From: Longimicrobiales bacterium
GTDB taxonomy: Bacteria > Gemmatimonadota > Gemmatimonadetes > Longimicrobiales > Gaopeijiaceae
Length of the DNA: 64,000 nucleotides
Assembly: GCA_965204735.1 (NCBI GenBank)
Contig: OZ242008.1
Span: forward strand, 3,008,001 to 3,072,000
Direction of reading: 5' to 3'
Under the pieces are notes generated by a model. That model searched no databases. It was not told the origin of the DNA and saw only the letters and a program-made list of their open reading frames with translations. Shown one piece after another: positions 1 to 20,337 of this stretch (position 1 is the stretch's first letter; each line of letters opens with the position of its first letter). A program made the position numbers and the translations under genes.

Positions 1-989
1 GTCCGGAGCACGGGGTGACGACGACGCGGGTGCCGTGGGCGGAGGGGCGGTCGAGGTACACGGCGGCGTTCGAGTCGCTGGTGATCGGCTGGTTGCGCGA
101 GGCGAGCGTGCTTGCGGTGTCGCGGCGGCTGCGCTTGAGCTGGACGGCGGTCGCTGGGATCATGGAGCGTGCGGTGCGCCGGGGTTTGGCGCGTCGCGAG
201 ATGCGGGCGCCGCGGCGGCTGAGCGTGGACGAGACGTCGTTCAAGCGGGGCCACAAGTACGTGACGGTGGTGTCGGACTCGGAGACGAAGGACGTGCTGC
301 ACGTGGCGCCGGGCCGTAGCCGCGAAGCGCTGGAGGCGTTCTACCGCACGATGGGCGAGCGGCGGCTGGCGGCGGTCGAGAGCGTGTCGATGGACATGTG
401 GCGGCCCTACGTGGCGGCGACGGAGGCGTGGGTTGCCGACGCGCGCAGCAAGACGGCGTTCGACCGCTTTCACGTGGCCAAGCATCTGGGCGACGCGGTG
501 GACAAGGTGCGGCGCGCCGAGCACAAGGAGCTGAAGGCGCGGGGCAATGCCGTGCTGGCGGGCACGCGGTACCAGTGGCTCCGGGGCGCCGGCAAGAAGA
601 CGCACGCCGAGAAGCTGGCGTTCGCCGAGTTGCGCAAGAGCGTCGAGCGCACGTCCCAGGCCTGGGCGCTCAAGGAAGCGGCGTCGAAGCTGTGGCGATA
701 TCGCAGCCGGGGCTGGGCGCACTCGGCGTGGTTGCGCTGGCTGCAATGGGCGTCGGCCTCCGGGCTCGAGCCGGTCGAGAAGGCGGCGGCGATGGTCCGG
801 ACGCACCTGTGGGGCATCGTCAACGCCGTCGTGCTCGATGCCACCAACGGCCCGGCCGAGGGCGTCAACAGCCGCATCCAAGCGATCAAGGCCCGGTGCC
901 GCGGCTTCCGCAACCAGGACCGCTTCGCCGCGGCCATTCTCTTCCACCTCGGCGGTCTCGACCTCTGTCCGCGCCCCGCCCAGCACTGA
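1..989 (+). CDS. ISL3-family transposase (5' end outside window)
   Basis: Motifs VPWA, SVDETS..GHKYVTVV, SMDMW, FDRFHV and TNGPAEGVNSRIQAIK..RGFRN. Stop at 987-989. Confidence 0.95.
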   Translation, partial: PEHGVTTTRVPWAEGRSRYTAAFESLVIGWLREASVLAVSRRLRLSWTAVAGIMERAVRRGLARREMRAPRRLSVDETSFKRGHKYVTVVSDSETKDVLHVAPGRSREALEAFYRTMGERRLAAVESVSMDMWRPYVAATEAWVADARSKTAFDRFHVAKHLGDAVDKVRRAEHKELKARGNAVLAGTRYQWLRGAGKKTHAEKLAFAELRKSVERTSQAWALKEAASKLWRYRSRGWAHSAWLRWLQWASASGLEPVEKAAAMVRTHLWGIVNAVVLDATNGPAEGVNSRIQAIKARCRGFRNQDRFAAAILFHLGGLDLCPRPAQH

Positions 990-1047
990 CCCGCCGTGCC
1001 CCGTGCCACCTCCGCTCCGTCCAGGTTCCATGTCCCTCCCCACGACA

Positions 1048-2096
1048 TGTCGTACCAATTTAGAAATGTCCGGTCTTACCAAGATAGAAATGTCCTCTTT
1101 CGGGCGATGTTCGGCGGGAGTCGAACTCGTGCCCGGGAGGAGGAGCGAATGGAGTTGAGCTTGAAGGAGCGGGACCGGATCTCGGTGTTGAGGCAGGTGA
1201 GCGAAGGCGTGCTGGCGGCGACCGAACGTCACTTCCGGCGCGTGCGCCGCCGGTTCGAGGCGGCGGGCGACGAGGTGGTCGTGCACGGGCTCCGGGGTCG
1301 GAGGTCGAACCAGTCGCTGCCGTCGGAGACGCGGGGGCGGGTGCTGGCCATGGCCAGGACCCCGACTACGCCGCCTTCGGCGCCACGCTGCTGGCGGAGC
1401 GCGTCGAGCTGAAGCTCCCCCGTCGTCGTCGAACGGCGTCTCTCGGGCGAGCTGCGCTTCCGGCATCGCGGCTGCTACCTGACGCCCAAGGCCTTGGGAT
1501 CGGTCCGGTCCGCGACGCCCAAGCCGGCGTCCGCGCCCGCGACGGCCAAGCCCAGGCCCAAGCCGCCGAAGCCGGGAAGGAATCACCCGTGGAGCAAGCA
1601 CTTCAGCGCCAGCGTGGCTCAGGCCGTGGCCAAGCGGGAACACCGCGCCGCCCACTCCAACGGGACCGGTCCCGAGCAGTGCAGGGCCTCGTCCTGAGCC
1701 CGCAGGCGGGGACGGCGGGTCGCACTCCCCTTCCCGCAAAGGTCGGGCGTGACCGCGGTGTCGGCATCCGTGCCTCCGAGGCTTGCCGGCGCTGCGCAGG
1801 TCGCTCGGCGCACCACGACCGTCCGAGCTGGCAAGCTCAGTGCGAACTGCAAGCCATCGGGGCAGCAGTGTCCAGGCCCGTCCGCGTTGGCGTCCATCCG
1901 GCCAGAGCTTGGCCACGGCGACGATCTCGACTCGCCAGGCCGCCGCTGGCCTTGAAGCGCCCGGACCAGGGCGCCCGGCGCCGTACAGCCCAGGCTTGCT
2001 GGAGCCGCGCGTCCTGCGCCCAACACCTGGCCCTCGGCCTCAGGAAGAACCCATCGTTCACACCACCAGGGGGGACATTTCTACTTTGGCTTGACA
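1048..2096 (+). mobile_element. IS1202-type (ISNCY/IS481-related) element, internally deleted and non-autonomous
   Basis: Left end TGTCGTACCAATTTAGAAATGTCC (1048); right end reverse complement TGTCAAGCCAAAGTAGAAATGTCC (2096). A second TAGAAATGTCC repeat lies at ~1085. Flanked by 17-bp direct repeats TGTCCCTCCCCACGACA (1031-1047) and TGTCCCTCCCCACCACA (2097-2113). Confidence 0.85.
1149..1697 (+). pseudogene. IS1202/ISNCY transposase remnant: N-terminal HTH and C-terminal tail only, DDE core missing
   Basis: MELSLKERDRISVL..RRFEAAG..VHGLRGRRSN, then frameshifted PDYAAFGATLLAE, then C-terminal VVERRLSGELRFRHRG..PKPGRNHPW. No integrase core in between. Confidence 0.8.
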
Positions 2097-2127
2097 TGTC
2101 CCTCCCCACCACATCAGGCGAAGAGCC

Positions 2128-2490
2128 GTGATCGCAATCAATGATGACGACTTCGAGGCACGCCTGTTGGACCTGACGGCGAATGCGAAGCGTGAGGAGG
2201 AAGAAGCGACCATACCGTTTAGCGCGGTTTCCGAGAAAGATCGGGACGAGATGCGGCTGGGCAGCATCTTCCATTGGTCCATCGGATACAATAAGACGAC
2301 CTGGAACAGGACGCGACGGACGATATCGCAAATCGTCTTCCGCGATACGCCCGTTCTGACGCAGAGAGATATGGACGAGGCCTGGGAATGGGCACTCGAA
2401 ACTCGGCGGCTGCTCGGGCTTGACCCTCCCGATCGGCCTGCTGTTCCACTGCCAAGCCCCGATGCGACACCCGACCGTGCGACCGACTGA
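2128..2490 (+). pseudogene. 3' part of an uncharacterised 'WEG'-motif gene (paralogue of 12304-12816), interrupted by ISL3
   Basis: Aligns with the 12304 protein from just after its WEGY motif (F.A.L.D.T...A.IP...S.KD...LG.IF.W.IGY...S.IVFRD.P.LT..DM.EA..WA). Begins exactly at the ISL3 end. Confidence 0.75.
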
Positions 2491-2611: not shown

Positions 2612-3889
2612 ATGATCCGTCGAATCCAGGCACTGAACTACCGTTGCCTCCGGTACGTCGATCTGTCGCTGGATCGGTTCCATGTGCTGGTGGGACCCAA
2701 CGCCAGCGGCAAGAGTACGCTGTTCGACGTGATGGCGTTCATGGGCGACGTGATTCGCGAAGGCGTTGGCGCAGCCACGGAGAGGCGAACGGAGAACTTT
2801 CAAGACTTGGTTTGGAAAAGGCCGAAGCGCAACATGAGTTTCGAGCTGGCCTTCGAGATCAACGTGCCCGACGACATCAAGGAGAAGCTGCCCCCGGAGA
2901 AGGACGATCGCGTCTTTCGCTACGAGATCGCGATTCGAGAGTCCGACAACGGATGGAAAATCGATTCCGAGCGCGGGCTGTTGATGCCGGAACCCTACAG
3001 GCCGCGTTCCGTGGCTCCCTCGCAGGTGTCTCGTTTCCCCGATCCGCCTCTACCTCCAGGCACAATCCTAGCTGGGGGCGCCCGCCCCGGTCGTCGTACG
3101 ATTTTGAGCAAGTCCCCCGAGGGGACGGACAGTTTCAGTATCGAGACTTCGGACGACCCAGGCAAAAGTTGGGCTACGAGCATAGCCTTCGGCCCAAAGC
3201 ACTCGGCGCTTCGCAACCTGCCAGAGTCACCCGACAAGTTTCCCATGGCCTCCTACGTAAAGTCTTTGGTGGGTGGTGGCATTGATTTCTTGTTTCTCGA
3301 CAGCAAGAAGATGCGCCTGCCGAGCCCTCCACACTCGAATCGCGAACGGTTGTCTTCTGACGGCCATAACCTGCATCGACTTATTGATGTCATGAGGAAA
3401 ACGGACGCGGAGGTCTATCGGGAATGGCTTGAACATGTCCAGACCGTCCTGGAAGACCTCTACGATATTCGAATCGTGGACCAAGAATACAACCGTAGCG
3501 TGTACCTAACCCTTGCCTACGATACCGGCTTGGAGGTTCCGTCGTGGATGGTGTCCGACGGCACCCTGCGATTTCTTGCGATGACCCTGATTCCATACCT
3601 GTCGCAGGATGGTCAAGTGTATTTGCTGGAAGAACCCGAGAACGGGATACATCCACTGGCGCTGGACGCTGTGTACTCGTCCTTGTCATCGGCGTACGAG
3701 TCGCAGGTACTGGTAGCCACGCATTCTCCTTCCTTCTTGTCCCTGGCGTCTCCAGAGGACATTCTTTGTTTTGCGAGGAGCGACGAAGGCGCAACCGGTA
3801 TCGTCAGGGGCAACGACCATCCGATGCTCAAAGAATGGCCAGAAGGCACCGACACCCGGTTGGTATTTGCCGACGGCGTGATCGGATGA
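2612..3889 (+). CDS. AAA_21/ABC-type ATPase resembling the MADS defence ATPase MAD3
   Basis: Walker A GPNASGKST, signature SDGTLRFLA, Walker B LLEEPENGIHP, ATHSP. N-terminal LNYRCLRYV and C-terminal HPMLKEW..FADGVIG resemble MAD3 (from memory of the family). Confidence 0.8.
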   Translation: MIRRIQALNYRCLRYVDLSLDRFHVLVGPNASGKSTLFDVMAFMGDVIREGVGAATERRTENFQDLVWKRPKRNMSFELAFEINVPDDIKEKLPPEKDDRVFRYEIAIRESDNGWKIDSERGLLMPEPYRPRSVAPSQVSRFPDPPLPPGTILAGGARPGRRTILSKSPEGTDSFSIETSDDPGKSWATSIAFGPKHSALRNLPESPDKFPMASYVKSLVGGGIDFLFLDSKKMRLPSPPHSNRERLSSDGHNLHRLIDVMRKTDAEVYREWLEHVQTVLEDLYDIRIVDQEYNRSVYLTLAYDTGLEVPSWMVSDGTLRFLAMTLIPYLSQDGQVYLLEEPENGIHPLALDAVYSSLSSAYESQVLVATHSPSFLSLASPEDILCFARSDEGATGIVRGNDHPMLKEWPEGTDTRLVFADGVIG

Positions 3890-4128: not shown

Positions 4129-4407
4129 GTGGACCAGACGCGGGGTGACCAGCAACCAGCCTTGAATCGCGGCCTGCTTTGCGCCCAGTGCGGAGCGCGA
4201 ACGGTCTTCACCGGTGGGCCCGACGACCGTCGCTCCAGCCGAAGTCCGCAACAGCAGGAGGAACACGGGATGAGCCGAGCCGACTTCGCCCGTGCCACGG
4301 GGCTGGGCGAGGCGACAATCGCGGGCTGGGAAGACGGGCTTCTGGTTCCGAACATCGCCGACGAGTGCGATCTGCGGCTCGTCTGTCTTCCGGTTGCTTC
4401 GGCATGA
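4129..4407 (+). pseudogene. Internally deleted MqsA-like Zn-ribbon/XRE-HTH antitoxin remnant
   Basis: RBS GGAGG at 4116, a single CAQC, then HTH GMSRADFARATGLGEATIAGWEDG. Stop overlaps the lmuA ATG (ATGA). Confidence 0.55.
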
Positions 4408-5150: not shown

Positions 5151-5371
5151 TCTTGCCGACCAAGCACGTCTCGGAGGCTAGGTCCTTGCTGGCGGCCGGT
5201 GCCCTGTTGCTCCATCGACTCGATCAGCCGCGGACCGTAACCGAGCTTTGGGAAGCTGTGAGAGGCGAGGAGATCGCCTCCTTCGACCGCTTCGTCCTAG
5301 CGGCGGAGATGCTGTACGCACTCGGCGCCGTGGATTTTCGCGACGGACTTCTGGAGAAGCACCGGCGATGA
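5147..5371 (+). CDS. lmuC: ABC-3C middle component (MC6-like) / LmuC
   Basis: TTG start overlaps the upstream stop. MILPTKH..SLL..GA.LL..L..PRTVTELWE..FDRFVLA..LYALG, 74 aa. Confidence 0.8.
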   Translation: MILPTKHVSEARSLLAAGALLLHRLDQPRTVTELWEAVRGEEIASFDRFVLAAEMLYALGAVDFRDGLLEKHRR

Positions 5372-7110: not shown

Positions 7111-7139
7111 CTCTCCACTTCCTTACCACTCCAGGGCCC

Positions 7140-7329
7140 CGGCAGGCAGAGACTCCGACTCGGCCCGGACCGACCACAAACAAGGACCCGCTCGACGGTC
7201 CGCTACGAGCTCTCCTCCGAGGACGGCTTGACGACAGACGAGGACGGCCCGAAAATGATCATGGAGCGGCTGTCCCGGTTCGTGAGCGGATCGACGGCCG
7301 TATCGGCTACCGGAACGGAAGAGGGCTGA
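7140..7329 (+). pseudogene. C-terminal remnant of a DUF499-type ATPase gene (copy 1)
   Basis: One frame reads ..RYELSSEDGLTTDEDGPKMIMERLSRFVSGSTAVSATGTEEG*, resembling the DUF499 C-terminus. Repeated at 11287-11441, upstream of DUF1156 in both cases. Confidence 0.55.
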
Positions 7330-7330
7330 C

Positions 7331-7480
7331 GTGACAAGACCAAGCCGAACTTCCCCTGCGGCCTTCCCCTTGTCCGCGCCCCAGTACGAGCTTCGGACGC
7401 GCAGCCGCGGACCGGGCGTTCTCCGCCGCTTCGCCCGTGGCGGCGTGCGGTGCCTGCTGGCGGAAGCGGGACGGAAGTAG
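7331..7480 (+). pseudogene. In-frame internally deleted remnant of the small DUF499-associated gene (copy 1)
   Basis: 49-aa ORF VTRPSRTSPAAFPLSAPQYELRTRSRGPG..RCLLAEAGRK*. Shares head and tail with 11443-11619 but keeps a different internal piece. Confidence 0.55.
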
Positions 7481-7484
7481 GGCG

Positions 7485-7752
7485 ATGCGGATCGAGCCGA
7501 GGTACGTAGCGTGGCCGTACGCCTGTCCGGCGAGTTCAATCCCCAGGAACTCACCCTACTTGGTTCGCGCAACGCGACCTGCTGCCACGTGACATGACGG
7601 ACGCCACCGAGGTGGAGGAGCGAGGCGGCAGAATCTGGTTCACGACCGACTGGCTCCGGTTTTGGGCAGATTCGGAAGGATTAGCACGCATGCCACATCA
7701 CCAGTTGTCACCCTATCGAAGCTTACTCAGCCACTTGGTGGAGGGAATATGA
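7485..7752 (+). pseudogene. Collapsed remnants of the 11624 gene (7485-7684) and of the 5' end of the 12304 gene (7690-7752)
   Basis: Matches 11624-11817, then jumps to 12291-12330 (..GATTCGGA|AGGATTAGCACGCATGCCAC..). The stub at 7690-7752 ends overlapping the ATG at 7749. Confidence 0.8.
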
Positions 7753-8237
7753 GCACACGACAGACGCTCGGACGCTGGATCAAGGTGAAGCCCGACAGCT
7801 ACGTGGAACCGACTGAAGATGTAGAACCTGGGGTATTCGTTTCTCCCTATGACATCCCTAACCGGATTCGAGTAGGCTACGACAAGGGCCTCGGCCGATT
7901 CGTGGCGGAGTTTCACTATATGGTAGATGAGAAGTATCGACGCCTATCTGGCGATGGAGTTCGCTATCGTCTGGGCAAGCATTCCGGCCGCATCATAGGC
8001 GTGGAGACCGATCGTCAGGATGGGCAGATGTCCGTACGGATCAAGGAGAACGAAGACGCCTATCAAGCGATACTGGAGGCGATGGGGAACGTCGGTACCG
8101 TAGCGGGCAACATGGCAAGGGGGCGAGAGAATCATGTGGTGGCGAAGAGGGTTCTCGAAGACTACCAAGACGTCATCGTTCAAGACATGCTGGCTGTTGC
8201 CAGTGACACGGTGACCGATAGAGTGCCGGGGAGATGA
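7749..8237 (+). CDS. Hypothetical protein (defence-island cargo, 162 aa)
   Basis: RBS GGAG(G), ATG at 7749, stop overlaps the DUF1156 ATG. Lower-GC coding; motif [25 protein letters not shown]. Confidence 0.7.
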
Positions 8238-11207
8238 ATGACCGTCGGCTGATCGAGGAGTGGTTGCCGATCGCGGAGCTGAGCGAGGAGTCCACCCGCG
8301 AGCGCCGATCCATGACCGCGTTGCCGCCCGTGTACTACCTGCATGTGTGGTGGGCGCGACGGCCCTTGGTGGCGTCGAGAGCCGCCGTGCTGGGGGCATT
8401 GCTGCCCGCGGACGCGGACCGAAAGCGGTTTCTGCACGTGCTGGGCATTCACGGGGACCCAGTGACGGTCCGACGCCGCATCGACGCGGCCAAGCGAAAC
8501 GGAGAAGACCTCGGCCCGAATCCGTATGGCTACAAGCGGGCCTTCTCGTACTCGCCGGCGGGTGTCGATCTTGAGTGGATCGGCGATAGTAGTAGTAGCG
8601 TGTCTGTCAAGGGCGGCCTGGATAAGGTCCGGGTACTTGATCCTACAGCAGGTGGTGGCAGTATTCCCGTGGAGGCTGTCCGTGTCGGCTGCCGCCCGCT
8701 TGCGAATGACCTCAATCCCGTGGCGGCGATGTTGCTGGACGCTACGGTGAACTGGCCGCTCACGCATGGGAGTCGAATACAAGAGGAATTTGCCGGGCTG
8801 GGCGCAGAGTTTGTCGAGCGTACTGAGACAAGGTATGAAGGAGTGTTTCCGCTGGAATCGGATGGGATTCGAGTCGTAGCATATTGTTGGGCCCACACGG
8901 TCCGTTGTCCGTACTGCAACGGTGTGGTACCGCTGTCGCCAAACTGGCGTCTTGCGAAGGGTGGCATGGGCGTGAGGCTGGTCCCGCGGATGGGAGACGG
9001 TCCGGGCTCCAATGATCGGCGTTGCGAGTTCGAGATCGTCAGCACGGTGGCGGAGCAGTCGGCGGGCACGGTGGGTCGCGGGACGGCCAACTGTCCGTAC
9101 CGGGACTGCGGTCGAGTGATCGACGGTGACGAGATCAAGTTGCAGGCGCAGGAAGGGGAGATGGGCCACCAGGCTGTACGCCGTCGTGTACAAGAAGCGC
9201 GTGCCCCGAATCCTGAAGTCGGGAAAACGCGGCAAGGACAGGTGGGTGCGCGGCTACCGCGCTCCGCGCCCGTCGGACGACAACAGCCAGGAGATTGAGC
9301 GTCTACTGGCGGAGAAGCTGCCGGAGTGGGAGGCGCTGGACATCGTGCCGAGCGAGAGGATACCGGACGGCAACAAGACGACGGAGCCGCTGCGGTACGG
9401 CATGCCTTACTGGCGGGACATGTTCTCCCCGCGCCAGCTGTTCTGCCACTGCACCAGCGTCGAGGTCTTCCGCGAGATGCTCAAGGCTGATCGCAATGAC
9501 CGGCGAATGACCGGGGTGCGGAAGGCGGCATACGGATACTTGGCTATCGCTCTGGACACGTTGCTGAATTTCAACAGTCGAGCGACTCGATGGGTGTCAA
9601 CGACAGGCAGAATCACCTCGACCTTCGATCGACACAATTTTGCATTCGTATGGTCGTATGCAGAGATGGCCCCGGTCGTAACCGGCATCGGCTACGACTG
9701 GGCGATCAAGAAAACCGCCAAGTGCATCGGCGAACTCGTCGCGCTGATTCATTCCCCGGCGGACGACAACAACGGCCCGATCTTCAACGACGATTCGGGC
9801 GAATCCCCTCCACCCAAACCCGTCATCACCTGCAAGTCCGCCGACAACCTGGACCACATCGCCGACGGCGAGATCGACGCTGTCGTCATGGACCCGCCGT
9901 ACTACGACAACGTCATGTACGCCGAGCTGTCCGACTTCTTCTACGTCTGGCTCAAGCGGACCGCCGGCTACGTCTTCCCCGAACTCTTCCGCCGCCAGTT
10001 GACCGACAAGGACAACGAGGCCGTCGCAAACCCGGCGCGCTGGAAGGGCGAGAAGGGCGCCAAGGCCCGCGCCGGCAAGGACTACCAGGAGCGCATGGCG
10101 GCGATCTTCCAGGAATGCCGTCGCGTGCTCAAGCCCGACGGAATCATGCCGCTTATGTTCACCCACAAGGCCACCGGGGCGTGGGACGCGCTCACGGTGG
10201 GGCTAATGGAGGCGGGCTTCAGGATCACGGCGTCGTGGCCGATCAACACGGAGGCGCCGGGCAGCCTGCACATCAAGGACAAGGCGGCGGCGAACAGCAC
10301 AGTCTTCCTTGTATGCCGCCCGCGAACCGGCGATGAAGAGAAGGAATCGGACGACGTTTACTGGGAGGATGTGGAGCCCGAGGTCGCACGTGCCGTCCGC
10401 AAGCGCATCCCCCAGTTCAAGGAGGCGAACATCCGGGGCGTGGACCTGTACTTGGCGTCGTTTGGGCCGGCGCTGGAAGAGTTCTCGCGCCACTGGCCGC
10501 TCCGGCGCGGAACGCCCCGACAGCGGACGCGGGCCCAGAAGCGTCGCCGGCAGTCCGAGCTCTTCCAAGAGAAGGAGGACCCCTACGCCGCGACGCCGGA
10601 GGACGCACTGGAGGTCGCACGCCGCGAGGTGAAGCGCTGGCGGCTGGAAGAGCTGACCCGCGTCAGGGCGGGCGACGACATGGACGCTCGGACGGCGTTC
10701 TTCGTGCTGGCGTGGGACGCCTTCCGGGCGCCGCGCTTTCCCTACGACGAGGCGTTGAAACTGGCGCGCGCGGTGGGCGTGGACCTGGACAAGGAAGTCG
10801 TGGGTCGGACGGCGGCGAAGGTCGGGGCGAACTTGGTGCTGTGGGACAGCGCGGAGCGGGCGGCAAAGGGCAGCCTGGGGCCGGCGGACGGATCGACGGG
10901 CATGATCGACGTGCTGTACCGGACGGCTCATCTGGGGCGTATCCGTTCGCTCGACGCGGCTCGGGAGTACTTGGAGAACGTCGGGCTGCACAAGGAGCCG
11001 CGCTTCCTGGCGGCATTGAAGGCGCTGCTGGAGGTGCTGCCGATGCCGAAATCGGTCACCAAGTTCGACTTGCCGAAGGGGCTGGCGGCGGCGGGGAGCG
11101 ACTTCGAGGTGCTGGAGAACCTTCGGCGGCTGGCGTTCGGGGAGCAGGTGGCCGAGCCGGCGCAGCTCAAGCTGTGGCGCGACGAAGAAGGGGACGACGC
11201 GACCTGA
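8234..11207 (+). pseudogene. DUF1156 adenine-specific DNA methyltransferase, copy A; +1 frameshift at ~9172 (real or sequencing error)
   Basis: [18 protein letters not shown], motif [23 protein letters not shown]/CPYxDC Zn ribbon, motif IV DPPYYDN. Sequence CACCAGGCTGTAC here versus CACCAGCTGTAC in copy B. Confidence 0.9.
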
Positions 11208-11209
11208 CG

Positions 11210-11278
11210 ATGCTGTCGGACCGGAAGTGGGAGCTGGCCTACACCACGGACGACGGCCCACTGGCCGAGAGCTTCTAC
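11210..11278 (+). pseudogene. 5' stub (23 codons) of the PLD-SNF2 helicase gene
   Basis: Nearly identical to 16951-17019 (MLSDRKWELAYTTDDGPLAE.FY), then switches abruptly into the DUF499 tail. Confidence 0.85.
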
Positions 11279-11286
11279 TACATCCT

Positions 11287-11619
11287 CGGCAGGCAGAGGC
11301 TCCGACTCGCCCCGGACCGAGTTCGCCTCCGAGGCCGGCTTGACGACGGACGAGGACGGCCCGAAAATGATCATGGAGCGGCTGTCCCGGTTCGTGACCG
11401 GATCGACGGCCGTGTCGGCTACCGGAACGGAGGAGGGCTGACGTGGCAAGACCAACCCGAACTTTCCCTGCCGCCTTCCCTTTGCCGTCGTGGAAAGGCG
11501 CGGACGCCATGGAGCGCGAAGAGGCGAGCTGCTGGCTGGGCACGGCGATGCGCCGTCGGAACCCCGGGCGGGTGCTGATGGCGCTGCGGTGCCTGCTGAC
11601 GGAAGCGGGACGGAAGTAG
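11287..11619 (+). pseudogene. DUF499 C-terminal remnant (11287-11441) plus in-frame deleted small associated gene (11443-11619), copy 2
   Basis: Direct repeat of 7140-7480. The 58-aa ORF reads VARPTRTFPAAFPLPS..MEREEASCWLGTAMRRRNPGRVLMALRCLLTEAGRK*. Confidence 0.6.
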
Positions 11620-11623
11620 GGCG

Positions 11624-12298
11624 ATGCGGATCGAGCCGAGGTACAGCAGCGTGATCGTACGCCTGTTCGGCCAGTTCGATCCCCAGGAACTCACACCTAC
11701 GTGGTTCGCACAACACGACCTGCTGCCACGTGACATGACGGACGCCGCCGAGGTGGTAGAGGGAAGCGGCAGCATCTTGTTCACGACCGACTGGCTCAGG
11801 TTTTGGGCAGATTCGGAGAGCATGAATGCCGAAACCCCGCAGGCACCCTACATCCAAGCGTTCGACCTCGTCAACAGGGCCTTCCGCGAGCACCTGTTTC
11901 GCACAACTCGCCTGACTGCATTTGCGATTAGCCGCAACGCTATCTTCTTCCCGTCGGATGTCGAAGTGTTTGATCGGATAGCAAGAACGCTCGTGACGTT
12001 TGACGAACATCCTGTCATTGACACCGACGGAGCGAACAGCCGTGACGGCGACGCGCCGGGTTCAGTGGTTGTAATGCAGGAAAACCAAGACGATATCGCG
12101 TTGCTGCACTTGCGTCGCACCACTGATCCGTTCATGATCGGCGTCGAATTCACCGAGAAGCACGCAAGCGAGTGCAATGATCCCGGAGAGAGCAAGGACT
12201 TGGTTCAAATGTTGGGAAGACGTTTCGACGACTTCGTCTTACGTGCCGACAAGGCAATCGAGCGAACAATGTCGTCTGGCACTCGCGAGAAGGATTAG
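11624..12298 (+). CDS. Uncharacterised protein (GQFDPQELTPTWF motif), gene 1 of a three-gene cargo module
   Basis: Intact 224-aa ORF with lower GC; a degraded second copy lies at 7485-7684. Confidence 0.75.
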   Translation: MRIEPRYSSVIVRLFGQFDPQELTPTWFAQHDLLPRDMTDAAEVVEGSGSILFTTDWLRFWADSESMNAETPQAPYIQAFDLVNRAFREHLFRTTRLTAFAISRNAIFFPSDVEVFDRIARTLVTFDEHPVIDTDGANSRDGDAPGSVVVMQENQDDIALLHLRRTTDPFMIGVEFTEKHASECNDPGESKDLVQMLGRRFDDFVLRADKAIERTMSSGTREKD

Positions 12299-12303
12299 CA
12301 CGC

Positions 12304-12816
12304 ATGCCACGTCACCAGTTGTCACCCCATCAAGACATGCGCCTGGAAATGTTGCCATCTGTAGCGCTCGCATCGCCTCCACCCGGCACAGATACACTCA
12401 AGCGCTTGGCCGATGGAGTCCACATTACCGACGATGTTCACCCCACGCCGGTAACTGGCAAGTCGCCGCAGATCGCGTTGCCAATAGTAGTGATAGTGCC
12501 ACTTCAAGAATGGGAGGGCTATGTGGCGGAGATCGGTGATGCAGATTTCACGGTGGCCCTCGTGGATATCACTCGCGGCGACAAGCACGTAAGCGAAACG
12601 GCCGTAATTCCACTCAAGGAATTGTCCCAGAAGGATGCGGCCGACTTGTCGCTAGGCCAGATTTTTCGTTGGGTAATCGGATATGAGTACTCGATGTCCG
12701 GCGAGAAGACGACAGTGTCGCACATCGTGTTCCGTGATCTGCCGAGGCTGACCGACGAAGACATGGAAGAGGCTCGAAAGTGGGCCCGGGAGTATAGCGA
12801 TTGGCTCGCATCGTGA
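12304..12816 (+). CDS. Uncharacterised 'QEWEGYV' protein, gene 2 of the module
   Basis: 170-aa ORF with a Pro-rich N-terminus and a beta-rich C-terminal domain. Paralogue at 2128-2490. Confidence 0.75.
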   Translation: MPRHQLSPHQDMRLEMLPSVALASPPPGTDTLKRLADGVHITDDVHPTPVTGKSPQIALPIVVIVPLQEWEGYVAEIGDADFTVALVDITRGDKHVSETAVIPLKELSQKDAADLSLGQIFRWVIGYEYSMSGEKTTVSHIVFRDLPRLTDEDMEEARKWAREYSDWLAS

Positions 12817-13931
12817 GGAAGCTGCATGAGCCACCGAAATCGACCGACATTGAACTCACAGTAATCGGGCCCGGCTACGGTGAGAGCATCCTGGTCCATG
12901 TTGGCGAAGGAAGATGGATTATCGTGGACTCATGTATCGATCGCGAAACGGGCAGGCCCCGAGCGCTGACTTATCTTGAAGGCATCGAAGTCGATCCATC
13001 CACCTCTGTTGCACTGGTCGTAGCAACCCACTGGCATGACGACCACATAGCCGGAATGGAACAGCTCGCGACCGTATGCCGCAAGGCGGCTTTCTGCTGC
13101 CCCGCCGCTTTGCTCGATGAGGAATGTCGAACGATCATCGCTGCACTGAAGGGACAGCCTGTGACACCTGCCAGCTCGAATGTGAGCGCGATATTTGCGA
13201 CGTTGACGGCGCTGCTTGCGAGGAATTCCCATCCCTGTTTTGCCATCGCCGATCGTCGTGTCTTTCTGCACGGGAAGTGCGAAGTATGGACTTTGTCGCC
13301 CAGCGACGGTGCATTTCTGGGCTCCATCAGGTCCCTGAAGGGCGCGTCGCCCGCCGACACGCGACGTGGAGTGCGACTGCCTGCCTTGTCGCCCAACCGG
13401 GCATCGGCAGTGTTGTGGATTGAAGTTGAAGGTGTGGCCCTCCTGCTCGGCGCCGATCTGCCGAAAGCCGGCTGGAAGGACATATTGGAAAGCCGGACTC
13501 GACCCCTAGGCCGTGCGTCCGTAGTCAAAGTGCCGCATCATGGGTCTCAAGACGCCTTTGAGCCACGAGTGTGGAACGAGATGACGACGACACAGCCGGT
13601 GGCGGTCGTGACGCCGTCCGCCAAAGGAATGAGCCCTCCGCCAACGGCAGAAGACCTCACGAGAATACTGCTCAAGACGAAAGACGCCTACATCACCGCC
13701 GAGCCTCGAAGTCAACAGACGCCAACCAAGCTGCACCACGAAGTCGACAGGGTGCTTCGACAGAAGGTGATCAAGAGGGACTCGGTCGGCAAGCCGGGGA
13801 TTGTACGACTGAGAAGGAGCATCGGTTCAGAACAGGACTGGACGGTAGAAAGATTCGGAGGCGCATGTAGCGTCGGCCGCTACGTGACCGTAACAGCAGA
13901 TGGCGACGCCAACGGAGCCGATACATCGTGA
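12813..13931 (+). CDS. MBL-fold (ComEC/Rec2-like) metallo-hydrolase, putative nuclease, gene 3 of the module
   Basis: GPGYGESILV, VDSC, THWHDDHIAG (HxHxDH), LLGADL, KVPHHGS. GTGA overlap with the upstream gene; no transmembrane competence domain. Confidence 0.88.
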   Translation: MRKLHEPPKSTDIELTVIGPGYGESILVHVGEGRWIIVDSCIDRETGRPRALTYLEGIEVDPSTSVALVVATHWHDDHIAGMEQLATVCRKAAFCCPAALLDEECRTIIAALKGQPVTPASSNVSAIFATLTALLARNSHPCFAIADRRVFLHGKCEVWTLSPSDGAFLGSIRSLKGASPADTRRGVRLPALSPNRASAVLWIEVEGVALLLGADLPKAGWKDILESRTRPLGRASVVKVPHHGSQDAFEPRVWNEMTTTQPVAVVTPSAKGMSPPPTAEDLTRILLKTKDAYITAEPRSQQTPTKLHHEVDRVLRQKVIKRDSVGKPGIVRLRRSIGSEQDWTVERFGGACSVGRYVTVTADGDANGADTS

Positions 13932-13996
13932 TCCGCCAAGTGCAGGCCCTGAGGTGCTGGAGACACGAAGGCGATCGCTGCGGCCTTGGACCATGA
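13928..13996 (+). pseudogene. 22-aa stub resembling the start of the MAD3-like ATPase
   Basis: AACGGAGCCGATACATCGTGATCCGCCAAGTGCAGGCCCTG versus AACGGAATCGACACATCATCATGATCCGTCGAATCCAGGCACTG at 2592; VIRQVQAL versus MIRRIQAL. Confidence 0.5.
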
Positions 13997-16948
13997 GTGA
14001 CCGTCGGCTGATCGAGGAGTGGATGCCGATCGCGGAGATCGGGATCGAGGGTACCCGCGAGCGGACCCCGATGACGCCGTTTCCGGCGCCGAATCGGCTT
14101 CACGTGTGGTGGGCGCGTCGGCCTTTGGTGGCGTCAAGAGCTGCCGTGCTGGGGGCGTTGCTGCCAGCGGACGCGGATCGGGAACGGTTTCTGCACGTGC
14201 TTGGGATTCATGGGGACCCGGTGGCTGCCAAGGGGCGTATCGCCGTCGCGACGCGGGCTGGAAAACGGCTTGGTGCGGACGCGTACGGATACATACGTGC
14301 CTTTCGATACACGCCGTCTGTGGAAGAAGCGGATTGGTTGGCCGACTCGATTGGCAGCGACACCACGGTGCTTGATCCGACGGCAGGCGGTGGAGCCGTC
14401 CCTTTTGAAGCAATGCGGCTCGGATTTATTACGACATACGCCAACGATCTCAACCCTGTTGCTGCTCTCATCGGACGGGCGACGGTTGAATGGCCAGCGA
14501 CGTTACTAGGGCCGGAGATTCGTAAGCCATTCTTGGAACTTGGAACAAGGCTAGTCAACGAAATCCGACGGCGTCTCGTTGGCGTGTTTCCCGACGAGCC
14601 GCTCGACGATGTTCGACCGGACGGGTACGTCTGGGCCCACACTGTCCGTTGCCCGTACTGCAATGGCGTGGTGCCTTTGTCTCCGAACTGGCGTCTGACG
14701 CCGGACGGGACGGGCGTGAAGCTGCAGCCACACCTGGGAGACGGGCTGGGCTCCGACGATCGTCGCTGCGAGTTCCAGATCGTGGAGTCGGCCAACGAGC
14801 AGTCGGCGGGCACGGTGAGTCGCGGGAACGCCAACTGTCCCTATCCAGACTGCGGTCGGGTGGTCGACGGCGACGAGATCAAGCTGCAGGCGCGGGAAGG
14901 GGAGATGGGCCACCAGCTGTACGCCGTCGTGTGCAAAAAGCGCGTGCGGAAGATGCTGAAGTCGGGAAAGCGGGGCAAGGACAGGTGGGTGCGCGGCTAC
15001 CGCGCTCCGTGCCCGTCGGACGACAACGGCGATGAGATTGAGCGGCTGCTGGCGGAGAAGCTGCCGGAGTGGGAGGCGCTGGACATCGTGCCGAGCGAGA
15101 GGATACCGGACGGCAACAAGACGACAGAGCCGCTGCGGTACGGCATGCCTTACTGGCGAGACATGTTCTCCTCACGCCAGCTGCTGTGCCACGGTACCAG
15201 CATCGAGGTCTTCCGCGAGATGCTTTTGGCCGACCAGAACGTCGGAAGGCTTACCGAGCTCCGCAAGGCGGCATACGGATACTTGGCGCTAGCGATGGAC
15301 AAGGTAGTGGCCTACAACTCGCGAATGTCCTCGTGGCATGCAGGCCGGGAGGTGATCGCAAGTGTGTTTTCACAGCACGACTTTTCATTCAAGTGGTCTT
15401 ACGCCGAGATGGCACCGCTCGTCACCGGCATTGGCTACGACTGGGCGAATCGGGAGACAGCCAAGTGCATCGGCGAGCTCGCGGCACTGATTCGTCCCCA
15501 GACGGACGAAGACAACGGCCCGATCTTCAACAACGATTCCGACGAGTCCCTCCCGCCCAAGCCCGTCATCACCTGCAAGTCCGCCGACAACCTGGACCAC
15601 ATCGCCGACGGCGAGATCGACGCCGTCGTCATGGACCCGCCGTACTACGACAACGTCATGTACGCCGAGCTGTCCGACTTCTTCTACGTCTGGCTCAAGC
15701 GGACCGCCGGCTACGTCTTCCCCGAACTCTTCCGCCGCCGGCTGACCGACAAGGACAACGAGGCCGTCGCGAACCCGGCCCGCTGGAAGGGCGAGAAGGG
15801 CGCCAAGGCGCGCGCCGGCAAGGACTACCAGGAACCGCATGGCGGCGATCTTCCAGGAGTGTCGTCGCGTGCTCAAGCCCGACGGGATCATGACGCTCAT
15901 GTTCACCCACAAGGCCACCGGGGCGTGGGACGCCCTCACGGTGGGGCTGATGGAGGCGGGCTTCAGGATCACGGCGTCGTGGCCGATCAACACGGAGGCG
16001 CCGGGCAGCCTGCACATCAAGGACAAGGCGGCGGCGAACAGCACGGTCTTCCTTGTATGCCGTCCGCGAACCGGCGAAGAGAAGGAATCGGACACCATCT
16101 ACTGGGAGGACGTGGAGCCCGAAGTGGCGCGTGCCGTCCGCAAGCGCATCCCCCAGTTCAAGGAGGCGAACATCCGGGGCGTGGACCTGTACTTGGCGTC
16201 GTTTGGACCGGCGCTGGAGGAGTTCTCGCGCCACTGGCCGCTCCGGCGCGGAACGCCCCGACAGCGGACGCGGGCCCAGAAGCGTCGCCGCCAGCAGGAG
16301 CTCTTCGACGAGAAGGAGGACCTCTACGCCGCGACGCCGGAGGACGCGCTGGAGGTCGCGCGCCGCGAGGTGAAGCGGTGGCGGCTGGAGCAGCTGACCC
16401 GCGTCAGGGCGGGCGACGACATGGACGCTCGGACGGCGTTCTTCGTGCTGGCGTGGGACGCCTTCCGGGCGCCGCGCTTTCCCTACGACGAGGCGTTGAA
16501 GCTGGCGCGCGCGGTGGGCGTGGACCTGGACAAGGAGGTCGTTGGTCGGACGGCGGCGAAGGTCGGGGCGAACTTGGTGCTGTGGGACAGCGCCGAGCGT
16601 GCGGCGAAGGGCAGCCTGGGGCCGGCGGACGGCTCGACGGGCATGATCGACGTGCTGTACCGGGCGGCCCATCTGGGGCGCCTCCGTTCGCTGGACGCGG
16701 CTCGGGAGTACTTGGAGAACGTCGGGTTGCACAAGGAGCCGCGCTTCCTGGCGGCGTTGAAGGCGCTGCTGGAGGTGCTGCCGATGCCGAAATCGGTCAC
16801 CAAGTTCGACTTGCCGAAGGGGCTGGCGGCGGCGGGGAGCGACTTCGAGGTGCTGGAGAACCTTCGGCGGCTGGCGTTCGGCGAGCAGGTGGCCGAGCCG
16901 GCGCAGCTCAAGCTGTGGCGCGACGAAGAAGGGGACGACGCGACCTGA
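13993..16948 (+). pseudogene. DUF1156 adenine-specific DNA methyltransferase, copy B; +1 frameshift at ~15835 (real or sequencing error)
   Basis: Same motifs as copy A ([25 protein letters not shown]). Sequence CAGGAACCGCATG here versus CAGGAGCGCATG in copy A. Confidence 0.9.
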
Positions 16949-16950
16949 CG

Positions 16951-19900
16951 ATGCTGTCGGACCGGAAGTGGGAGCTGGCCTACACCACGGACGACGGCCC
17001 ACTGGCCGAGTGCTTCTACGTGCCCGCCCTCCGGCACGCCGTTCGCTACGACCGGCTGACCGGATACTTCAACGCTGGCGCGCTGACCCTGGCGGCGCGG
17101 GGCATCGAAGGGCTGGTGCGCAACAATGGCGTCATGCGCATGATCGTCGGGTGCACGCTGGAACAGGAGGAGATCGGGGCGATCCAAAGGGGCGACCAGC
17201 TGCGCAACGCTGTCGAGCAGCGTCTGGCCAGCATCCCCCTTGCGCCCGACCCAAACGAGACCGACGCCCTGGAGCTGCTGGCGTGGATGGTCGCGCGCAA
17301 GCACCTGGAGGTGAAAGTCGCAGTGCCGTGCGACGCCGGCGCCCGCCGTCCCATACCAAACGGCGCCATCTTCCACGAGAAGACCGGCGTGGTCGAGGAC
17401 CGGGCGGGGGACCGAGTCGCCTGGACCGGCAGTCTGAACGAGACCCCCAGCGGCTGGCAGTACAACTGGGAGCGCATCCAAGTCTACACCAGCTGGCGCG
17501 ACGGGGAACGCGTTGCAGGCCTCGAGGCCGACTTCGACAAGCTGTGGAACGACCAAGCCCGACGGGCGACCGTGCTGACCTTGCCCGAAGCGGTTCGCCG
17601 GGACCTGCTGCGCTTCCTTCCCAAGGACGACAAGCCGCCCGCCCGCCTTCAAGAGCGCGAGGAGACGACCCGCCCCGGGCTGGGATCGGATTCCGGCTTG
17701 CCGCCCGGCCTGGAGGGCACGATCAGAGAGCCATCCCCGCCGACCTACGGCGACGCCGACGCCGACAAGCGCGTCTTCCGCGACCGCGTGTGGTCGTTCA
17801 TCAAGCAGGCGCCGGCGATGGCGGGAGGCGGAGGGCGCGTGGGCGAAGCGACGGCGGCGGTCGAGCCGTGGCCACATCAGGCCCGGGCCTTCCGCCGCAT
17901 GTACGACGGCTGGCCGCCCAGGCTCCTCGTCGCGGACGAGGTGGGGCTGGGCAAGACGATTCAGGCGGGGATGCTGCTGCGGCAGGCTTGGCTGTCGGGG
18001 CGCGCCAAGCGGATCCTCGTGCTGGCGCCGAAGGCCGTGCTGCGCCAGTGGCAGGTCGAGCTCTACGAGAAGTTCAACCTCAACTGGCCCATCTACGACA
18101 AGGGCGAGATGACTTGGCACCCGTCGCCCGCCTTGCGGGGCCGCCACGTCCGGCCCGCGGCCAGCGACCGTTGGCACCAGGAGCCCGTGGTGATCGCGTC
18201 CAGCTACCTGATGCGCCGAAGCGACCGTCGGCAAGCGCTTCTGGAGGACGCCGAGCCGTGGGACTTGATCGTCCTCGACGAGGCCCATCACGCCCGACGC
18301 CGGGGCGCGGCGGGCGCGTCCGACGGCGCTCCCAACACCCTTCTGCGGCTCATGGAGGGGCTGAAGGACCGCACGAAGGGCCTCGTCCTGCTGACGGCCA
18401 CGCCGATGCAGGTCCGTCCCGGCGAGCTCTGGGACCTTCTGCAACTGCTGGGGCTGCCGCCCGAGTGGACACCGGCCGAGTTCGTCGAGTTCTTCGAGCA
18501 CGCCCAGCGGGCGGACCCCACGCCCGCCGCCTTCGAGAGGATGGCGCGGCTCTTCCAAGCGACGGAGCGGCGCTACGGGGCCATGGCGCCAGCCCAGCTT
18601 GCCCGGGCGCTCGAGGGGCTCTCCCGCCTTCAGGCCCGGAAGGTGGTGCGCGCACTGCGGGACCGGGCCGAGACGCCTCGTCGCCAGCTGTCGGGAGCGC
18701 AGCGCGAAGCGGCCCTCCGGCTGATGCGGGTGAACACGCCCGTGCGGCGCCTCGTGTCCCGGCACACGCGGGAGCTTCTTCGCGAGTACCACCGGCGCGG
18801 CCTGCTGGCGACGCGCATCGCCGACCGCGATGTGGACGACCGCTTCGTCCAGATGAGCGCCGACGAGCGCGAACTGTACGAGGCGGTGGAGGAGTACATC
18901 GCCACGACGTACAACCAAGCGTCGGAAGAGGAGCGGCGGGCCGTCGGATTCGTCATGACGATCTACCGGCGGCGGCTGGCCAGCAGCTTCCGGGCGTTGC
19001 GCCGCACGTTGGAGCGGCGCGTCGGGGGCGAGGGCGGGCCGAGCGGGGACACAGCGGGCGGAACCGGCGGCACTGCAGGCGGCGTGGACGCCGATCCCTC
19101 GCTCGCCGAAGCCACCCTGGCCGAGGACGTGTCCGACGACGAGGTGGCCGACGACCCCGCCTTGGACGAGGACGCGGTGGCCAAGGCGCTGCGGGAATCC
19201 CTTCGCGCCGAAGAAGCGGAGGACGTGCGACGGCTCCTCGACCAGATCGCCCGGCTTCCGCCCGACAGCAAGCTTGCGGCCCTGAAGGACGCACTGGACG
19301 ACCTGCGCGAGCGCGGACACCGCCAAGTCATGGTCTTCACGCAGTACACCGACACCATGGACTTCCTGCGGGAAGAGCTGGCCGGGGACGCGGGAGCCCT
19401 GGAGGCCGGAACTGCGCGGGACGCCGGCTCCGCCCCAGCAAGCGCCGGCTCCGCCCCCACAAGCGCTGGCTCCGCCCCAACAAGTGCCGGCTCCGCCCCC
19501 AAGCTCATGTGCTACTCGGGCCGGGGCGGCGAAGTGCCCGGCACGGACGGCTGGCGGCCCGTGGACCGCGACACCGTCAAGCGACGCTTTCGAGACGGCC
19601 AGGCCGACGTGCTGCTGTGCACCGAGGCGGCGGCAGAAGGGCTCAACTTCCAGTTCTGCGGCGCCCTGGTGAACTACGACATGCCATGGAACCCGATGCG
19701 GGTCGAGCAGCGCATCGGCCGGATCGACCGCGTGGGCCAGCAGCACCCGACGATACGCATCGTGAACCTTCACTACGCGGACACCGTCGAGACCGACATC
19801 TACCGGGTGCTGCGGGAGCGCATCGGGCTCTTCGCCAAGATGGTGGGCCGGCTGCAGCCGATCTTGGCGCGGTTGCCGGGGACGATCACGCGGGCCGTGC

Positions 19901-20337
19901 TCTCGGGCGAAGGCGGGAGCGCGGCGGGCCGCCGGGAGACCGCCAAGGCCGTGGAGGCGCAGGCCAGCGAAGCCGAAGGCGGGTTCGACATCGACGCGGC
20001 GCTGGACGAGGTGTTGGACGACGACGCCCGCCCCGAGCCCCTCGTCACCATGACCGACCTGGACCGGGTGATCGGCTCGCCCGACCTGCTCGCGCCCGAC
20101 ACGCGGGTCCAGCCCCTGGGCAACCGCGAGTACGGCTTCACCCCGCCCGGGTCCACCGAGCCGGTGCGCGTCACCACCGACCCCGACCATCACCGCGACC
20201 ACCCCGACAGCGTGGAGCTGTGGTCGCCCGGCAACCGCCTCTTTCGGGCGCCGGAGGGCGTGAACGACCAGCGCCGCGACTGGCCCCCGGACGCCGCTCT
20301 GAAGGACATCCTGGACGGCCGACCCGGGTCGTCGTGA
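16951..20337 (+). CDS. PLD-like nuclease fused to SNF2 helicase (DUF499/DUF1156 restriction-like system)
   Basis: YDRLTGYF, FHEKTG..TGSLNET (PLD-like), DEVGLGKT, DEAHH, LLTATP, VFTQYTDT, EGLNFQ..NYDMPWNP..QRIGRIDR. Confidence 0.93.
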   Translation: MLSDRKWELAYTTDDGPLAECFYVPALRHAVRYDRLTGYFNAGALTLAARGIEGLVRNNGVMRMIVGCTLEQEEIGAIQRGDQLRNAVEQRLASIPLAPDPNETDALELLAWMVARKHLEVKVAVPCDAGARRPIPNGAIFHEKTGVVEDRAGDRVAWTGSLNETPSGWQYNWERIQVYTSWRDGERVAGLEADFDKLWNDQARRATVLTLPEAVRRDLLRFLPKDDKPPARLQEREETTRPGLGSDSGLPPGLEGTIREPSPPTYGDADADKRVFRDRVWSFIKQAPAMAGGGGRVGEATAAVEPWPHQARAFRRMYDGWPPRLLVADEVGLGKTIQAGMLLRQAWLSGRAKRILVLAPKAVLRQWQVELYEKFNLNWPIYDKGEMTWHPSPALRGRHVRPAASDRWHQEPVVIASSYLMRRSDRRQALLEDAEPWDLIVLDEAHHARRRGAAGASDGAPNTLLRLMEGLKDRTKGLVLLTATPMQVRPGELWDLLQLLGLPPEWTPAEFVEFFEHAQRADPTPAAFERMARLFQATERRYGAMAPAQLARALEGLSRLQARKVVRALRDRAETPRRQLSGAQREAALRLMRVNTPVRRLVSRHTRELLREYHRRGLLATRIADRDVDDRFVQMSADERELYEAVEEYIATTYNQASEEERRAVGFVMTIYRRRLASSFRALRRTLERRVGGEGGPSGDTAGGTGGTAGGVDADPSLAEATLAEDVSDDEVADDPALDEDAVAKALRESLRAEEAEDVRRLLDQIARLPPDSKLAALKDALDDLRERGHRQVMVFTQYTDTMDFLREELAGDAGALEAGTARDAGSAPASAGSAPTSAGSAPTSAGSAPKLMCYSGRGGEVPGTDGWRPVDRDTVKRRFRDGQADVLLCTEAAAEGLNFQFCGALVNYDMPWNPMRVEQRIGRIDRVGQQHPTIRIVNLHYADTVETDIYRVLRERIGLFAKMVGRLQPILARLPGTITRAVLSGEGGSAAGRRETAKAVEAQASEAEGGFDIDAALDEVLDDDARPEPLVTMTDLDRVIGSPDLLAPDTRVQPLGNREYGFTPPGSTEPVRVTTDPDHHRDHPDSVELWSPGNRLFRAPEGVNDQRRDWPPDAALKDILDGRPGSS
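19423..19500 (+). repeat. In-frame 21-bp tandem repeat, about 3.7 copies, inside the helicase gene
   Basis: GCCGGCTCCGCCCC(A/C)..AAG(C/T) units encoding AGSAP(A/T)S. Confidence 0.9.

What the first reader, a model, noticed from the sequence alone, without database searches (positions are those of the whole stretch)
7140..20337. Accordion array of DUF499/DUF1156/SNF2 operon units: two methyltransferase variants share one helicase-nuclease
Seen: two tandem units (~7140-11278 and ~11287-17019), each built as DUF499 tail, small-gene remnant, cargo, DUF1156, start of SNF2. Only the last unit continues into a full PLD-SNF2 gene. The junction at 11278/11287 fuses the SNF2 head to the DUF499 tail. 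A third related unit is hinted at 2128-3889 (WEG paralogue then ATPase). Known: DUF499 + DUF1156 + SNF2 loci are restriction-like, BREX-related anti-phage systems, normally with one methylase. Inference: the locus grew by repeatedly acquiring related operons, kept only their methylases and cargo and eroded the redundant core genes, giving a multi-specificity or recombination-switchable system.
Basis: partly seen in the sequence, partly recalled or inferred. Interest (0 to 1): 0.85.

Follow-up and report, generated by a model that had tools for sequence, protein, structure and literature searches.

The report
Anti-phage operon with spare methylase copy
A restriction-like anti-phage operon carries an internal duplication, also seen in related strains, that leaves two different DNA-methylase genes, both broken in this genome, so the extra copy is likely a store of swappable DNA-recognition parts rather than a second working enzyme.

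Summary
The tandem array is real. An intact DUF499 ATPase and DUF7680 gene lie just upstream of the window, making three units; the locus is a DUF499-centred BREX-related operon that likely works like MANTIS (Gao_RL). A contig from a second study bridges the SNF2-head/DUF499-tail join exactly, and a protein from another assembly reads through the same join. Both joins share a 37-bp element and a derived base change, so one join was likely copied rather than operons repeatedly acquired.

Read contigs confirm both; the downstream one is missing from one other run. No assembly showed two different intact copies, and no recombinase or inverted repeat is near.

Close alleles are block mosaics (9 types of one variable loop in 19 sequences). 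The upstream copy shows purifying selection (29 synonymous, 8 replacement changes), and two of three other two-copy contigs hold identical C-terminal parts. Best reading: one working specificity subunit plus a broken spare that recombination overwrites and may draw on; defence is likely off in this genome. New variant of a known kind.

The parts
1..2127 (+). ISL3 transposase plus a decayed second IS, one composite that starts 320 bases before the window and splits the unit-0 WEG gene. Just upstream, outside the window, lie the intact DUF499 ATPase (G000:C1:3004033-3007053, 1006 aa) and intact DUF7680 gene (3007055-3007537, 160 aa) that open the operon
   Evidence: PF01610; 97% to two identical copies elsewhere, with deletions; 8-bp target duplication; upstream genes PF04465 135 bits and PF24728 142 bits, Walker A and B present
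2128..2490 (+). 3' part of the unit-0 WEG cargo gene; 2419-2477 is a DUF7680 scrap and 2491-2530 a WEG scrap
   Evidence: 45% to the WEG gene at 12304; scraps
2612..3889 (+). MAD3-like AAA_21 ATPase, cargo
   Evidence: PF13304; NF047739 419.8 of 420 bits
4404..7110 (+). ABC-three-component cassette: HNH-CTD10 (4404-5150), MC6 (5147-5371), DUF2326 (5368-7110), cargo
   Evidence: Pfam and PADLOC PDC-M68A/B
7137..7173 (+). 37-bp join element, copy A
   Evidence: 92% to 11284-11320; no other significant match in G000-G003, G008 or 80 related loci
7191..7480 (+). DUF499 tail (to 7330) and DUF7680 remnant with internal deletions, unit 1
   Evidence: 96% over 225 bases to the intact genes; alignment
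7486..7717 (+). Remnant of unit-2-type cargo: head of the 224-aa gene fused to the first 43 bases of the WEG gene
   Evidence: 17 substitutions in 191 bases plus single-base deletions
7749..8237 (+). 162-aa cargo gene of no known family; homologues lie in the same operon in G003 and L028
   Evidence: no significant Pfam hit
8234..11207 (+). DUF1156 adenine methylase copy 1 (990 codons), frameshifted at 9172-9173
   Evidence: PF06634; break seen in runs X8 and X11
11210..11278 (+). Truncated SNF2 head, 23 codons
   Evidence: 1 difference from 16951-17019
11284..11320 (+). 37-bp join element, copy B
   Evidence: bridged exactly by X11 contig 11221-11397; same join peptide ends P0180
11318..11620 (+). 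DUF499 tail (to 11442) and DUF7680 remnant with one large deletion, unit 2
   Evidence: 95% over 167 bases and 92% over 156 bases
11624..13931 (+). Three intact cargo genes: 224 aa, WEG 170 aa, metallo-beta-lactamase-fold 372-376 aa; a common insert of this operon family
   Evidence: same trio in G002 and many of 80 loci; PF00753
13993..16948 (+). DUF1156 adenine methylase copy 2 (984 codons), frameshifted at 15835-15836; the shifted frame stays open into SNF2 (2114 codons)
   Evidence: break present in X8, missing from both X10 contigs
16951..20337 (+). Intact PLD(HKD)-SNF2 helicase-nuclease, 1128 aa
   Evidence: PF13091, PF00176, PF00271; PADLOC PLD_Helicase 1e-72; motifs kept

Best explanation
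This is a DUF499-DUF7680-DUF1156-PLD/SNF2 operon whose middle segment stands in three direct units behind one shared join, with both remaining methylase genes frameshifted here, and it likely works like MANTIS with one working methylase at a time and a broken upstream spare that homologous recombination likely overwrites and may draw on. Shown: the array, the shared join, both frameshifts, block-mosaic alleles, an intact ATPase, small gene and helicase-nuclease. Inferred: (1) one illegitimate join fused the SNF2 head to the DUF499 tail and unequal crossing-over copied it; (2) redundant DUF7680 and cargo copies eroded by short deletions and unit 0 lost its methylase to other defence cargo; (3) methylase blocks are exchanged with alleles of other strains and between the two copies across their near-identical flanks; (4) as in MANTIS the methylase sets the target for both marking and cutting, so losing it silences the system without self-killing, which is the likely state of this genome.
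For: Join bridged exactly by a contig of run X11, a different sample and study code from the best holder X8. P0180, from another assembly, ends in the same join peptide, and a full-length methylase with a different loop (P0276) is listed on a contig of the same length. Both tails share the 37-mer and one change absent from the intact gene and G002. Dead parts of units 1 and 2 differ by 8-9% (14 of 168, 17 of 191, 3 of 37), near the 12% synonymous distance of the methylases. Copy-1-specific changes in codons 515-984: 29 synonymous, 8 replacement. P0005 equals copy 1 over aligned residues 26-50 and 226-300 and copy 2 over 501-525 but matches neither over 76-225; 9 types of one loop among 19 close alleles. 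Same-contig pairs P0005/P0278 and P0121/P0279 have 0 differences over the C-terminal core, against 6 between the contigs. MANTIS preprint 10.64898/2026.09.23.753747: a TRD swap alone changes specificity; mtsC knockout is not toxic and ends restriction.
Against: Same-contig assignment rests only on equal contig lengths; no DNA of those contigs was seen. The test for conversion tracts between the two copies here was not significant (p = 0.086), and 2 of 4 two-copy pairs are not homogenised (9 and 10 differences). The stretch that switched specificity in MANTIS (residues 444-527) maps, by motif offsets through one homologue, to a part where the two copies are mostly 88-100% alike, so different targets are not shown. 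The tails are no closer to each other (14 of 168) than to the intact gene (10 and 9), which also fits separate donors. The in-frame downstream allele in X10 rests on one contig at depth 4.7. The small gene is not DUF3780 by sequence.
Confidence: 0.58

Rival explanations
1. The units were gained one after another from different donors by homology-facilitated illegitimate recombination, each time leaving the older unit's remains, as in Vibrio T6SS orphan-immunity arrays.
For: The unit-2 tail shares three letters with G002 against the intact gene; the first 100 bases of copy 1 are 89% like G003 but 74% like copy 2; the 162-aa cargo gene travels with this operon in G003 and L028; 5 of 80 related loci hold small duplicated scraps of core genes. 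The first join could have arisen this way.
Against: Independent events would not be expected to share a 37-bp element and a derived change, nor to give the same join in another assembly.
Confidence: 0.2
2. The array is, or until lately was, a dual-specificity system: two active methylases load the same ATPase and PLD-SNF2 on two different sites.
For: Copy 1 has one frameshift in 3 kb and pN/pS 0.09 while its neighbours carry many deletions; C-terminal halves are 97% identical, fit for shared partners; a sigma-70-like match lies in both retained tails.
Against: Both copies are broken here; the copy-1 break is in two studies; the upstream copy is also broken in the one other assembly where order is known (P0180); 0 of 80 related loci have two near-full methylases; the promoter-like match is in 1 of 55 related tails. 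Overwriting from working alleles also explains low pN/pS.
Confidence: 0.14
3. The tandem is a chimeric assembly of two strains, or the frameshifts are sequencing errors.
For: The genome looks metagenome-derived (named runs are sponge and marine metagenomes); both breaks are one-base insertions; no listed contig spans the whole array or the first join.
Against: Exact contigs across the second join (X11) and across both breaks (X8; X11 for copy 1); same join in P0180; copy-1 and copy-2 contigs have like depth in X8 (172 and 189-219).
Confidence: 0.03

Closest known systems
MANTIS (Gao_RL, BR type 2); preprint 10.64898/2026.09.23.753747 and PMC12839542
   Same: Gene order ATPase - small gene - group-alpha DUF1156 methylase - PLD/SF2 helicase; methylase aligns with an annotated member (probability 99.9%).
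   Different: Small gene is DUF7680, not DUF3780; all three core proteins score far below the NCBIfam cut-offs (211/1200, 254/1000 for the intact G002 methylase, 349/1100); described with one methylase, and the preprint's main text has no 'duplicat', 'recombin' or 'phase vari'.
Hma system (BR type 1); PMC11232893
   Same: ATPase and methylase match HmaC and HmaB best in PADLOC; the operon is a known insertion hotspot (about 66.5% carry inserts, AAA_21 pairs among them).
   Different: The nuclease is an N-terminal PLD, not a C-terminal PD-(D/E)XK; the section read describes no duplicated core genes.
BREX type 1 pglX programmed inversions (Lacticaseibacillus rhamnosus); PMC9881135
   Same: Spare methylase sequence with a variable middle and constant ends beside a BREX-related core.
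   Different: Those loci use inverted repeats and a recombinase; here the repeats are direct and no recombinase is near.
TRD movement among Type III mod alleles of Helicobacter pylori; PMC3575425
   Same: Recognition blocks move by recombination at conserved flanks.
   Different: There between separate loci; here within a tandem array of one operon.
Vibrio cholerae T6SS orphan-immunity arrays; PMC8189183
   Same: Stacks of truncated and orphan modules left at one locus by recombination.
   Different: Unrelated proteins; orphans there stay intact and protective, the spare here is broken.

Membership tests
[quoted passage not shown] | DUF499 AAA+ ATPase, DUF1156 N6-methylase and Swi2/Snf2 helicase in one locus | tested here: met
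   definition from PMC12839542 section 28; the methylases are frameshifted in this genome
MANTIS / Gao_RL / BR type 2 | N-terminal HKD/PLD nuclease fused to the SF2 helicase | tested here: met
   PF13091 at residues 136-201, HEK and GSLNET motifs, PADLOC PLD_Helicase best hit
MANTIS / Gao_RL / BR type 2 | Stand-alone DUF3780 gene, by sequence | tested here: not met
   small gene hits DUF7680 only; 56-sequence profile against one DUF3780 protein: probability 0.6%
MANTIS / Gao_RL / BR type 2 | DUF3780-like fold (four strands, five helices) | tested here: inconclusive
   model has 4 strands and 5 helices, pLDDT 88.5, as PMC12839542 describes for DUF3780; no solved DUF3780 structure came up for comparison, no match at Z 5 or more
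MANTIS / Gao_RL / BR type 2 | Group-alpha methylase: motif I, central TRD, then DPPY | tested here: met
   DPTAGGG at about residue 130, DPPY at about 548 in both copies
MANTIS / Gao_RL / BR type 2 | Curated family scores for the three large proteins | tested here: not met
   NF042962 211 of 1200, NF042963 254 of 1000 (intact G002 allele), NF042964 349 of 1100
MANTIS / Gao_RL / BR type 2 | Hemimethylation of an asymmetric 6-bp site and restriction at inverted sites | not testable with these tools
   needs methylome and phage assays
Hma / BR type 1 | C-terminal PD-(D/E)XK nuclease on the helicase | tested here: not met
   no such Pfam hit on 16945-20337 at E 0.01; PLD at the N-terminus instead
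Programmed (invertase-driven) methylase shufflon | Inverted repeats around the variable part | tested here: not met
   self-comparison shows only direct repeats in 1-20,400
Programmed (invertase-driven) methylase shufflon | Adjacent site-specific recombinase | tested here: not met
   2 tyrosine recombinases in the genome, the nearer about 590 kb away; 0 resolvases

The most novel reading that the evidence does not exclude
A recombinase-free cassette switch in a MANTIS-like system: the species keeps a silent upstream methylase as a store of recognition loops, converts them into the working copy to change phage specificity, and passes through two-methylase, dual-specificity states on one shared ATPase and helicase-nuclease.
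Probability: 0.3. Interest if true: 0.72.

Novelty: new variant of a known kind. Interest (0 to 1): 0.5.

Why it matters
In MANTIS the methylase alone sets what is marked and what is cut, so how it changes target is how the defence keeps up with phage. This locus gives a natural allele series (9 types of one loop on a nearly constant scaffold) for mapping which loops read which bases, a candidate route for specificity change without an invertase, and a DUF7680 branch of the family that seven full-text searches did not find described with duplicated methylases; DUF7680 itself had 0 hits. It does not show a working two-methylase system.

Tried and rejected
Origin of the 37-bp element: no significant match in five genomes, 80 loci or JGI metagenomes (0 exact matches); a weak likeness to the next SNF2 codons (57-235 of 2000 controls score as high) and a 9-of-12 match between the SNF2 break and DUF499 (2 of 3010 positions) are both left unproven and exclude each other. 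Conversion-tract test not significant. Internal promoter in the DUF499 tail: 4 matches against 2.2 expected, 1 of 55 related tails; kept as a weak lead. DUF3780 search in 301 genomes of the phylum found none, but its controls were silent too. Methylase model (pLDDT 77; variable loops 24-42 and 448-461 under 50) had no match at E 0.001 or better and no solved relative by sequence; DUF7680 model had none at Z 5 or more. Earlier findings: nothing shown. Goldfarb 2015 (PMC4337064) was not held and is not used. No supplements were read; the BR paper's neighbourhood tables may list DUF7680 loci or duplicated methylases.
Full report
Setting. The window is G000:C1:3008001-3072000 of a one-contig, 4.14-Mb, 98% complete genome. 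The closest related loci are labelled Longimicrobiales and the named runs that hold the stretch are sponge and marine metagenomes, so a sponge-associated Gemmatimonadota is likely. The genome has 4 DUF499 genes and 6-7 DUF1156 matches.

Observation. Self-comparison confirms the repeats. An intact DUF499 gene (1006 aa) and DUF7680 gene (160 aa) lie just upstream of the window, so there are three units. Unit 0: DUF499, DUF7680, a WEG gene split by an IS composite, a MAD3-like ATPase and an ABC-three-component cassette. Unit 1: 37-bp element, DUF499 tail, DUF7680 remnant, cargo remnants, a 162-aa gene, methylase copy 1, 23 codons of SNF2. Unit 2: 37-bp element, tail, DUF7680 remnant, three intact cargo genes, methylase copy 2, full PLD-SNF2. 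G002, G003 and G008 each have one unit; G002 has the plain form of unit 2.

Not an artefact. Four of 13 listed runs were laid, as contigs. X11, with a different sample and study code from X8, has a 177-base contig identical to 11221-11397 across the second join (depth 3.5). No listed piece bridges the first join, but one search printed only 32 of about 1,290 pieces. P0180, from another assembly, runs off frame through the SNF2 head into the same join peptide.

Both methylases are broken. Copy 1 has an extra base at 9172-9173, copy 2 at 15835-15836. The first is inside exact contigs of X8 and X11. The second is inside an exact X8 contig (depth 189); X8 may be the source sample. In X10 both contigs lack it: one carries copy-1 letters, the other (depth 4.7, so possibly in error) has copy-2 letters in frame; the X11 contig there is the copy-1 allele and says nothing. 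So copy 1 is dead in at least two studies and the copy-2 break looks recent. The copy-2 shift leaves an open frame of 2114 codons that runs into SNF2; its meaning is unknown. ATPase, small gene and helicase-nuclease keep their motifs.

One join, copied. Both tails follow the same 37-bp element (34 of 37 identical), found nowhere else searched, and share a change absent from the intact gene and G002. Dead parts of units 1 and 2 differ by 8-9%; the methylases differ by about 12% at synonymous sites. Against a simple local copy: the tails are no closer to each other than to the intact gene, and the element's origin is unresolved.

Alleles are mosaics. Copies 1 and 2 are 87-100% identical at the DNA level from about 9800 on but 41-66% over 8434-8926 and 54-74% over 9424-9723. 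The N-terminal motif is an old two-state polymorphism (48 and 30 of 78 loci scored). Among 19 alleles whose C-terminal halves are 93-99% identical to the window's there are 9 types of the loop at about residues 433-461, in varied combinations with the other blocks. The loop of the broken upstream copy P0180 is also found in a full-length gene, P0287. Copy-1-specific changes in codons 515-984 are 29 synonymous and 8 replacement (pN/pS 0.09; copy 2: 13 and 8), so its sequence came from, or was until lately, a working gene.

How common. Of 13 other contigs with a DUF499 protein at least 90% identical, 3 carry two methylase products, 5 one, and 5 none in the clusters I looked up; the grouping rests on equal contig lengths only and the look-ups were not exhaustive. 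In all 3, one product is partial. Two of these pairs are identical over the C-terminal core while differing by 6 between contigs; the third pair and the window's pair differ by 10 and 9. Farther out, 0 of 80 loci (the best 80 of 681, so biased to intact genes; two are the query's own; flanks up to 10 kb) have two near-full methylases and 5 have small duplicated core scraps. In 151 genomes of the family 22 have DUF1156; the only other pair within 10 kb is a duplicated head in G002.

Mechanism. The MANTIS preprint (10.64898/2026.09.23.753747; abstract, Introduction, first part of Results, section 12, Discussion and word searches read) shows for the DUF3780 branch that the ATPase and small protein load the methylase, that the methylase sets the target for marking and cutting, that a TRD swap alone switches specificity, and that deleting the methylase is harmless and ends restriction. 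By analogy the system here is likely off and harmless, and methylase blocks are the part under pressure to change. Caution: by motif offsets through one annotated homologue the swapped MANTIS stretch falls on about residues 320-410, where copies 1 and 2 are mostly 88-100% alike; they differ in the loop matching MANTIS's minor-groove loop and in the 433-461 loop just beyond. Different targets are inferred, not shown. No inverted repeat or nearby recombinase was found, so any switch would be ordinary homologous recombination.

Known systems. PMC12839542 (passages; sections 28, 29, 30, 32, 33) defines the BR types. The locus meets the three-gene definition and the type-2 helicase, but not DUF3780 by sequence; the fold is similar by description only. 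It works like MANTIS but is not filed as a member. PMC11232893 (abstract, section 18) documents cargo insertion in such operons. PMC9881135, PMC3575425 and PMC8189183 (passages) give the analogues for spare methylase sequence, TRD movement and stacked remnants. 10.1101/2024.04.12.589231 (abstract only) reports PglX as the sole specificity factor of BREX.

Verdict. A real array, apparently inherited across strains, in a little-described DUF7680 branch of BR systems, with rich allele shuffling, but no working two-methylase system was seen. New variant of a known kind; interest 0.5; cassette-switch reading 0.3.

Noticed in passing
G000:C1:658478-665092 (L109:8478-15092): Tandem pair of open 982- and 979-aa N6-methylase (Eco57I/MmeI-like) genes, 82% identical over 1.9 kb, inside another SNF2-DUF1156-DUF499 locus of the same genome; a better candidate for two intact specificity variants side by side.
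   Followed up: partly
window 13993-20337: The frameshift in methylase copy 2 leaves one open frame of 2114 codons joining its N-terminal 613 codons, an off-frame linker and the whole PLD-SNF2.
   Followed up: partly
window 7138, 7015, 8421, 15621 (run X12): A related strain in X12 (depth 41-47) shows joints 7138 to 15621 and 8421 back to 7015, and a contig at depth 4 joins 11638 to 2131 without the IS: other rearranged forms of this locus, single contigs, unresolved.
   Followed up: no
G002:C1:149123-153714: A second DUF1156 locus in G002 has a duplicated methylase head (about 300 bases, 75%) 4.4 kb upstream of the full gene.
   Followed up: partly
window 7228-7256 and 11340-11368: Sigma-70-like match (9 of 12) in both retained DUF499 tails and in G002, weaker in the intact gene here; not conserved in related loci.
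   Followed up: yes
window 19394-19486: In-frame short tandem repeat insertion (about 30 residues) in the SNF2 gene, absent from G002 and G008.
   Followed up: no
L020 (G003:C1 about 1269600): The G003 methylase is interrupted at a long run of C in its linker: assembly error or a slippage tract.
   Followed up: no
L001:5777-8795: A separate small defence-like pair (AAA_21 ATPase; Schlafen/AlbA-RecG-C protein) 7-10 kb upstream of DUF499; G003 has a WEG gene at this spot.
   Followed up: no
L027-L106: This methylase subfamily is 59-73% identical across many phyla of mostly metagenome-assembled genomes, which suggests wide horizontal spread; the 224-aa/WEG/MBL cargo trio recurs in many of them and its first two genes have no Pfam or NCBIfam family.
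   Followed up: partly
window 28137-28292, 30794-30840/46920-46966, 57798-57990: Short direct repeats elsewhere in the window.
   Followed up: no
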